Source: Octopus vulgaris
Taxonomy: Eukaryota
Direction of reading: 5' to 3'
Length of the DNA: 64,000 nucleotides
Assembly (NCBI GenBank): GCA_951406725.2
Contig: OX597839.1
Span: 22,444,001 to 22,508,000 of the forward strand
Shown here: positions 33,296 through 33,370 of the stretch, piece after piece
Layout: the number at the start of each line of letters is the position of its first letter
Numbering within the stretch: the stretch's first letter is position 1
The notes under the pieces: generated by a model
What the model was told of the DNA's origin: nothing
What the model saw: only the letters and a program-made list of their open reading frames with translations
Database searches by the model: none
Program-made: the position numbers and the translations under genes

Positions 33296-33370
33296 CTTGT
33301 GAAATGTTGACATGTCACACCTTTGGTTATCTATTCTGTCACTCTGCATTCTCTCCAACAACTCAAACAT
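33296..33370 (-). CDS. RAP1GAP: Rap1GAP-family gene, GoLoco (GPR) motif exon MFELLERMQSDRIDNQRCDMSTFHK
   Basis: Acceptor ctcttttttctccccag and donor AAG|gtaagt; 75 nt, phase 0-0. Matches the GoLoco consensus and human Rap1GAP FEMIEKMQGSRMDEQRC (recalled). Confidence 0.92.

What the first reader, a model, noticed from the sequence alone, without database searches (positions are those of the whole stretch)
33296..33370. GoLoco triad is N-Q-R, one A-to-I edit away from canonical D-Q-R
Seen: the motif reads RIDNQR, with Asn encoded by AAC (33328-33326) and a 5' U neighbour. Established: GoLoco motifs use an acidic-Gln-Arg triad to position the Arg that contacts GDP on Galpha-i/o, coleoid cephalopods recode proteins heavily by ADAR, and ADAR prefers a 5' U. 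Inference: editing the A at 33328 gives GAC (Asp), which could make Galpha coupling of this RapGAP editing-tunable. I did not find an intronic sequence that pairs with this codon.
Basis: partly seen in the sequence, partly recalled or inferred. Interest (0 to 1): 0.75.

Follow-up and report, generated by a model that had tools for sequence, protein, structure and literature searches.

The report
Octopod Rap1GAP variant GoLoco motif
An ordinary octopus signalling gene (Rap1GAP) has two G-protein-binding motifs, and the first carries an inherited Asp-to-Asn change shared with argonauts that is likely tolerated because the second motif is intact; no RNA edit that reverses it was seen, though minor editing could not be excluded.

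Summary
In detail: exon 33370-33296 (-) reads MFELLERMQSDRIDNQR, Asn = AAC with a 5' U, in Rap1GAP. Asn is derived: it occurs in three Octopus species and Argonauta, while 31 of 31 aligned non-octopod orthologues have D/E. The editing claim is not shown. Spliced contigs of 8 of 8 runs laid read AAC, but contigs hide minor alleles and the runs were chosen with unedited words; per-site octopus editomes were not readable. For it: after splicing the A is predicted to face a C in a short hairpin with the next exon (10 of 650 coding As; 10 of 400 shuffles). Best reading: a fixed, tolerated substitution in a redundant motif. Editing of 10% or more: about 0.15.

The parts
33296..33370 (-). GoLoco motif 1 exon of Rap1GAP, MFELLERMQSDRIDNQRCDMSTFHK; 75 nt, phase 0
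   Evidence: spliced contigs cover 33296-33372 only
33326..33328 (-). Asn codon AAC at the acidic position of the triad (residue 109 of P0001); A at 33328 is the proposed edit site, A at 33327 its neighbour
28865..28872 (-). first 8 nt of the next exon; predicted 3' arm of a 44-nt hairpin of the spliced mRNA, C at 28868 opposite A33328 (prediction only)
48419..48514 (-). upstream exon: tail of a LIM domain plus linker, ends NDKDK
   Evidence: joined to the GoLoco exon in contigs
30731..30877 (-). alternative first exon (O. sinensis model X5, P0125) that joins the exon at 28872 and leaves GoLoco 1 out
   Evidence: model-based, not seen in reads here
28678..28872 (-). Ser/Asn-rich linker exon between the two motifs
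   Evidence: joined in 4 of 4 contigs
12009..12104 (-). GoLoco motif 2 exon, canonical DFFDTIMNLQSRRIDDQR
   Evidence: (39.2 bits)
10500..10553 (-). linker exon
6028..6180 (-). exon at the start of the RapGAP dimerisation region
4825..4928 (-). Rap1GAP coding exon
3812..3887 (-). last Rap1GAP exon inside the window; the catalytic exons follow beyond base 1

Best explanation
The exon is the first of two GoLoco motifs of octopus Rap1GAP, and its Asn is a genomic Asp-to-Asn change shared by octopuses and argonauts that is likely tolerated without editing because a canonical second motif lies in the same protein. Shown: gene, two motifs, Asn confined to octopods, AAC in the majority transcript of the runs laid. 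Inferred: the change was fixed on the octopod stem along with at least 14 other changes at conserved sites; the motif keeps its hydrophobic helix, Gln and both Arg residues and stays conserved, so it likely still docks on Galpha-i/o, with weaker locking of GDP, while motif 2 likely supplies the full GDP-dissociation-inhibitor contact that recruits the Rap GAP. Editing below about 10% is compatible with this reading and would not matter much.
For: Second motif RIDDQR, 39.2 bits, in all listed octopod models; the tandem arrangement is older than cephalopods (Haliotis, Liolophura, Patella, Lingula, Lineus). 15 octopod changes at columns at least 80% conserved in 29 outgroups and both decapodiform-type sequences; only this one is A>G-restorable. 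Of 485 motifs in 134 other proteins, 12 have a non-acidic triad (G4, S3, T2, N1, A1, Q1), all 12 in proteins with at least two intact motifs; the named hosts are a fish, two nematodes, a butterfly and a rotifer. Argonauta has lost the preceding Asp too (RINNQR). Exon identity to O. bimaculoides 25/25 and Argonauta 22/25 against 46/65 and 42/65 for the next exon: still constrained. 0 differences in 8 of 8 spliced contigs, 7 studies, 4 organism labels. No intronic partner better than controls: 18 of 25 control probes paired better; local folding z -0.2 to -1.1.
Against: The position is acidic in 97.5% of other motifs, so the change is probably not neutral. The site is restorative-type, a class edited more often and more strongly in coleoids (PMC6881472, PMC8382921), has a 5' U, and is predicted as an A-C mismatch, the only one of 10 such coding As with a 5' U. 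No binding or GDI data exist for an NQR motif in what I could read.
Confidence: 0.66

Rival explanations
1. Restorative recoding: ADAR edits A33328 in 10% or more of neural transcripts, using a hairpin that forms only after the exon is spliced to the next one, so part of the protein regains DQR and two full motifs.
For: Ancestral Asp; 5' U; predicted A-C mismatch with both flanking pairs at P>=0.87 in 8 of 11 windows at 25 C; 10 of 650 coding As and 10 of 400 synonymous shuffles show this arrangement; A-C mismatches are enriched at coleoid edit sites (PMC8891338, passages); inverted intronic repeats lie within 300 nt on both sides.
Against: AAC in 8 of 8 contigs. The helix is short (3 bp, a 2x2 loop, 2 bp), the region folds no better than shuffles, the hairpin vanishes in 1 of 11 windows and drops to 0.2 with a 60-nt span limit; the gain in stability on A>G ranks 21 of 236, the neighbour 22. 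In AA pairs the downstream A tends to be edited first (PMC8891338 section 9), which gives Ser, then Gly. Base rate of N>D editing at AAC is about 1-2% by my hand estimate from tables ST2, ST3, ST6, ST7 of PMC8382921. The structure test was made after seeing the fold. Such intronic repeats are everywhere in this window.
Confidence: 0.15
2. Motif 1 has been re-purposed in octopods: loss of 3-4 N-terminal residues plus the Asp-to-Asn change would shift it from GDP-bound to GTP-bound (or nucleotide-independent) Galpha-o binding, as N-terminal truncation does in human Rap1GAP1a.
For: Octopods read DK-MFEL where other molluscs read DK-N.DLFEM or DK-NGDCLIEM; the altered exon stays conserved; human Rap1GAP1a with a truncated motif binds Galpha-o-GTP and the full 1b motif binds Galpha-o-GDP (PMC12329598 sections 7, 12).
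Against: The human truncation removes seven consensus residues; the octopod motif keeps its aromatic/hydrophobic core. Several bivalves also lack the N-terminal Asp with an intact DQR. No functional test.
Confidence: 0.12
3. Motif 1 no longer binds Galpha and is a decaying relic.
For: Second acidic loss in Argonauta; an annotated isoform omits it; the Ala-Gln-Arg motif of G18/GPSM3 is inactive (recalled, paper not held).
Against: Exon conservation (25/25, 22/25) matches that of motif 2 (31/32, 28/32) and far exceeds the linker.
Confidence: 0.06
4. Assembly or sequencing error, or a private polymorphism.
For: None found.
Against: Same residue in four species' models and in 8 of 8 contig sets.
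Confidence: 0.01

Closest known systems
Human Rap1GAP1 (isoforms 1a and 1b; PMC12329598, abstract and sections 7 and 12 read)
   Same: N-terminal GoLoco motif in front of a RapGAP dimerisation and catalytic domain; isoforms differ in their N-terminal motif content.
   Different: One motif with an acidic triad; tuning is by N-terminal truncation. The octopus gene has two motifs, an optional LIM domain, and Asn in motif 1.
Multi-GoLoco proteins with one non-acidic triad: G18/GPSM3 motif 2, Ala-Gln-Arg (recalled; paper not held) and 12 cases found here
   Same: A non-acidic first triad residue in one motif beside intact motifs.
   Different: 11 of the 12 found here are not Asn and cannot be turned into Asp by A>G; Asn is isosteric with Asp and may keep part of the contact (inference).
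Restorative (harm-permitting) A-to-I recoding in coleoids (PMC6881472 abstract and section 7; PMC8382921 passages)
   Same: Genomic G>A at a site whose ancestral residue would return on editing, in an octopus.
   Different: No editing has been shown at this site; in PMC6881472 the median level of restorative sites is below 2.5%.
Lophotrochozoan LIM-GoLoco-GoLoco-RapGAP orthologues (cuttlefish, abalone, chiton, limpet, brachiopod, nemertean)
   Same: Same gene, same order of parts.
   Different: All carry D/E in motif 1; many have isoforms without motif 2 and a much shorter spacer, whereas all octopod models listed keep motif 2.

Membership tests
GoLoco/GPR motif (PF02188) | Profile score above the curated cut-off | tested here: met
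   30.0 bits against 25.1
GoLoco/GPR motif (PF02188) | Hydrophobic N-terminal helix, Gln, R-hydrophobic-x-x-Q-R | tested here: met
   MFELLERMQSDRIDNQR against the consensus quoted in PMC8252600 and LGN motif 4G5S (E 0.19, weak alone)
GoLoco/GPR motif (PF02188) | Acidic residue in the D/E-Q-R triad | tested here: not met
   Asn; met by motif 2
GoLoco/GPR motif (PF02188) | Binds Galpha-i/o-GDP and slows GDP release | not testable with these tools
   needs a binding and GDI assay
Rap1GAP | Rap_GAP (PF02145) and dimerisation (PF21022) domains in the same reading frame | tested here: met
   21 exons joined at GT/GC-AG borders reproduce P0001 from residue 63 on
Restorative A-to-I recoding site | Genomic A where the ancestor had the edited residue | tested here: met
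   31 of 31 non-octopod orthologues D/E, 30 of them D
Restorative A-to-I recoding site | A>G in RNA but not in DNA | tested here: inconclusive
   0 of 8 contig sets show G; contigs cannot show minor alleles and run choice was partly circular; per-site tables not readable
Restorative A-to-I recoding site | Double-stranded RNA around the site | tested here: inconclusive
   no intronic partner in 28600-39400; short exon-exon hairpin with A-C mismatch predicted, overall stability not above shuffles
Restorative A-to-I recoding site | ADAR neighbour preference (5' U/A, 3' G) | tested here: inconclusive
   5' U met, 3' is A; G or T at +1 goes with high levels (PMC7703385 passage)

The most novel reading that the evidence does not exclude
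Octopods fixed a loss-of-charge change in a Galpha-binding motif and switch it back by ADAR editing through a hairpin that exists only in the spliced mRNA, so splicing and editing together set how many working GoLoco motifs (one or two) neuronal Rap1GAP carries: a biochemically testable case in the adaptive versus harm-permitting debate on cephalopod recoding.
Probability: 0.12. Interest if true: 0.6.

Novelty: new member of a known kind. Interest (0 to 1): 0.25.

Why it matters
As it stands it is a small comparative fact: an annotated Rap1GAP with an octopod-specific variant motif, giving a natural probe of what the triad's acidic residue does. It would matter more if editing were shown, because the site is restorative at a position that is acidic in 97.5% of GoLoco motifs, has a simple peptide assay, and would be a clean test case for why coleoids recode so much. 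One pile-up of public neural reads decides it.

Tried and rejected
Run search: no holder on record as RNA, only 3 sampled words, all contigs; 8 of 24 listed runs were laid, 11 further holders and the 5 rows with share 0.00 were not; both laying calls are used. Per-site editomes: Liscovitch-Brauer 2017 and Birk 2023 not held; tables S4/S5 of PMC8382921 are not in the held file; source data of PMC6881472 and PMC9068888 too large; data zip of PMC9699675 unreadable; supplements of PMC9989829 hold none of five gene terms. These blanks are no evidence; the unread tables may settle the question. GoLoco mutagenesis and structure papers not held. Search for an edited octopus protein: none among 3 hits and 11 cluster members, but those clusters hold only genome-based models, so this is uninformative; the search for shorter proteins gave one fragment with DQR. 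No second genomic copy or retrocopy. ESM Atlas: no usable hit. Intronic partner scan covered 28600-39400 only, not the whole 15-kb upstream intron. In one search three tallied hits were set aside as mis-registered (two in P0015 whose printed motifs end DDQR and EEQR, one LIM stretch in P0027). Print searches for this case; none found an octopus Rap1GAP GoLoco paper or an NQR motif. Earlier scan notes did not touch this gene.

Full report
1. Observation. Window 33370-33296 (-) is a 75-nt phase-0 exon with a pyrimidine tract, AG and GTAAGT. It translates MFELLERMQSDRIDNQRCDMSTFHK; the Asn codon is AAC at 33328-33326, after GAT. It scores 30.0 bits on Pfam GoLoco, cut-off 25.1, and is single-copy.

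2. The gene. Rap_GAP exons lie just beyond the low end of the window on the same strand. P0001, labelled Rap1GAP of Octopus vulgaris by its source, matches the window's exons at 100%; 21 exons with canonical borders rebuild it from residue 63. Order: tail of a LIM domain (48514-48419), GoLoco 1 (the finding), Ser/Asn linker (28872-28678), GoLoco 2 (12104-12009), dimerisation and GAP domains. An O. sinensis model uses an alternative first exon, found here at 30877-30731, that omits GoLoco 1 and keeps GoLoco 2. Contigs of 8 coded runs cover the exon and not its introns; their loose ends match the two neighbouring exons, so the exon is spliced as modelled.

3. Where Asn occurs. In the 120 best orthologue clusters, Asn is found only in P0001-P0003: Octopus vulgaris/sinensis, O. 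bimaculoides and Argonauta hians, the last reading RINNQR; one search tallied 103 D, 26 E, 3 N and three mis-registered hits. In the alignment, 31 of 31 non-octopod sequences have D (30) or E (1), including the cuttlefish cluster and a second, unnamed cluster of similar sequence. So Asn is derived on the octopod line by G>A (inference; no Nautilus, vampire squid or cirrate sequence was found to date it). Two motifs in tandem are older than cephalopods.

4. Is it edited? Contigs of 8 of 8 runs laid (7 studies, 4 organism labels, depth 20-208) show no other letter in the exon. This says only that AAC is the majority form in those runs. The published per-site tables could not be read. Base rate: PMC8382921 table ST6 lists 1078 N>D and 1244 N>S edits at AAC in O. 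vulgaris; my hand estimate is 1-2% of AAC codons. Restorative sites are edited more often and more strongly (PMC8382921 passages), yet their median level is under 2.5%.

5. RNA structure. No partner in 28600-39400 beats controls: best duplex -30.2 kcal/mol, 18 of 25 control probes better; pre-mRNA z -0.44; none of the 25 longest inverted repeats includes the exon. In the spliced mRNA, however, a 44-nt hairpin is predicted in which A33328 faces C28868 of the next exon in a 2x2 loop. Both flanking pairs have P>=0.87 in 8 of 11 windows at 25 C; 10 of 400 synonymous shuffles and 10 of 650 coding As show such a mismatch, and this is the only one with a 5' U. A-C mismatches are enriched at coleoid sites (PMC8891338, passages and supplement passages). 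Against weight: the test was framed after seeing the fold, the helix is 3 bp + loop + 2 bp, the region is no more stable than shuffles (z -0.25 to -1.1), the effect of A>G ranks 21 of 236 and the neighbouring A ranks 22, and in AA pairs the downstream A tends to go first (PMC8891338 section 9), giving Ser or Gly. I put detectable editing near 0.3 and editing of 10% or more near 0.15 (judgement).

6. Is editing needed? Octopod Rap1GAP differs from P0004, P0005 and at least 80% of 29 outgroups at 15 of the mapped columns; 14 of these cannot be restored by A>G, several are radical (P248M, W254R, V359S) (743 of 844 residues mapped). Among 485 GoLoco-type motifs in 134 of 135 newly found proteins, 473 are D/E and 12 are not; all 12 sit in proteins with two or more intact motifs, and the hosts that carry a name are a fish, nematodes, a butterfly and a rotifer. 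One is RLNNQR, from an unnamed record. A non-acidic triad beside intact motifs is therefore a recurring, editing-independent state. The exon is nonetheless conserved among octopods (25/25, 22/25, against 46/65 and 42/65 for the linker), so it is unlikely to be dead.

7. Mechanism. Established: GoLoco motifs lie in the switch II/alpha3 cleft of Galpha-i/o, the triad Arg contacts the GDP phosphates and Gln positions it (PMC8252600 passage; PMC12329598 section 12; PMC4660580 passages). That the acidic side chain helps hold the Arg, and that G18 motif 2 (AQR) is inactive until Ala is changed to Asp, is recalled; those papers were not held. Inferred: motif 1 keeps helix, Gln and Arg, so it likely binds with weaker GDP locking; motif 2 likely gives the full contact. 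An edit could at most change the number of full motifs from one to two, not switch coupling on. A rival is re-purposing: the octopod exon also lacks 3-4 N-terminal residues, and N-terminal truncation turns human Rap1GAP1a into a Galpha-o-GTP binder.

8. Known or new. The gene and both motifs are annotated. The octopod Asn was not found in print (open-licence library only), nor in earlier notes of this scan. It is a new example of a known kind, a variant motif in a multi-GoLoco protein; it passes the GoLoco profile but fails the acidic-triad feature, and is not shown to be an editing site. Papers seen only as listings or supplement lists: PMC9068888, PMC9989829 (supplement search), PMC9699675 (passages), PMC7703385 (passages). 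Verdict: observation confirmed, interpretation partly supported and untested at its core; interest 0.25; novel case probability 0.12, interest 0.6 if true.

Noticed in passing
window 12104-12009 (-): Second, canonical GoLoco motif of the same gene; in abalone, chiton, limpet and brachiopod models it is an optional cassette, in all octopod models listed it is present and lies 93 residues from motif 1 instead of about 28.
   Followed up: yes
window 48514-48419 (-): Tail of a LIM domain; many lophotrochozoan Rap1GAP models carry an N-terminal LIM domain (PF00412) in some isoforms. The rest of the LIM domain and the first exons of P0001 were not found within 30 kb above the window.
   Followed up: partly
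window 6180-3812 and beyond base 1: 14 further octopod-specific changes at conserved Rap1GAP columns, several in the dimerisation region (P248M, W254R, F288I, V359S) and two near the catalytic core (H499Q, L501I): the octopod protein seems to have changed fast on its stem.
   Followed up: partly
window 33370 (exon start): The octopod GoLoco 1 exon starts with ATG and lacks 3-4 residues found in other molluscs.
   Followed up: partly
window 30877-30731 (-): Alternative first exon with a GTCAGC donor that would drop GoLoco 1; one contig (X1) ends at the 3' end of the GoLoco exon, as a branch there would cause.
   Followed up: partly
L001, L002, L004 (G000:C27): A multi-GoLoco gene of Pins/AGS3 type; its motifs end RIDDQR, RMNDQR, RLEDQR, RLEEQR, all with acidic triads.
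   Followed up: no
window 33546-33689, 32961-33034, 34965-35108, 36468-36632: Inverted copies of interspersed repeats on both sides of the exon, 72-81% complementary; could form long duplexes in the pre-mRNA.
   Followed up: no
window 39519-40187: Two tandem copies of a stretch whose translation looks like the end of a LINE reverse transcriptase (resemblance recalled, not tested).
   Followed up: no
P0002: The O. bimaculoides model runs through intron and repeat sequence after both the linker and GoLoco 2 exons and lacks a GAP-core exon: probably a faulty model.
   Followed up: no
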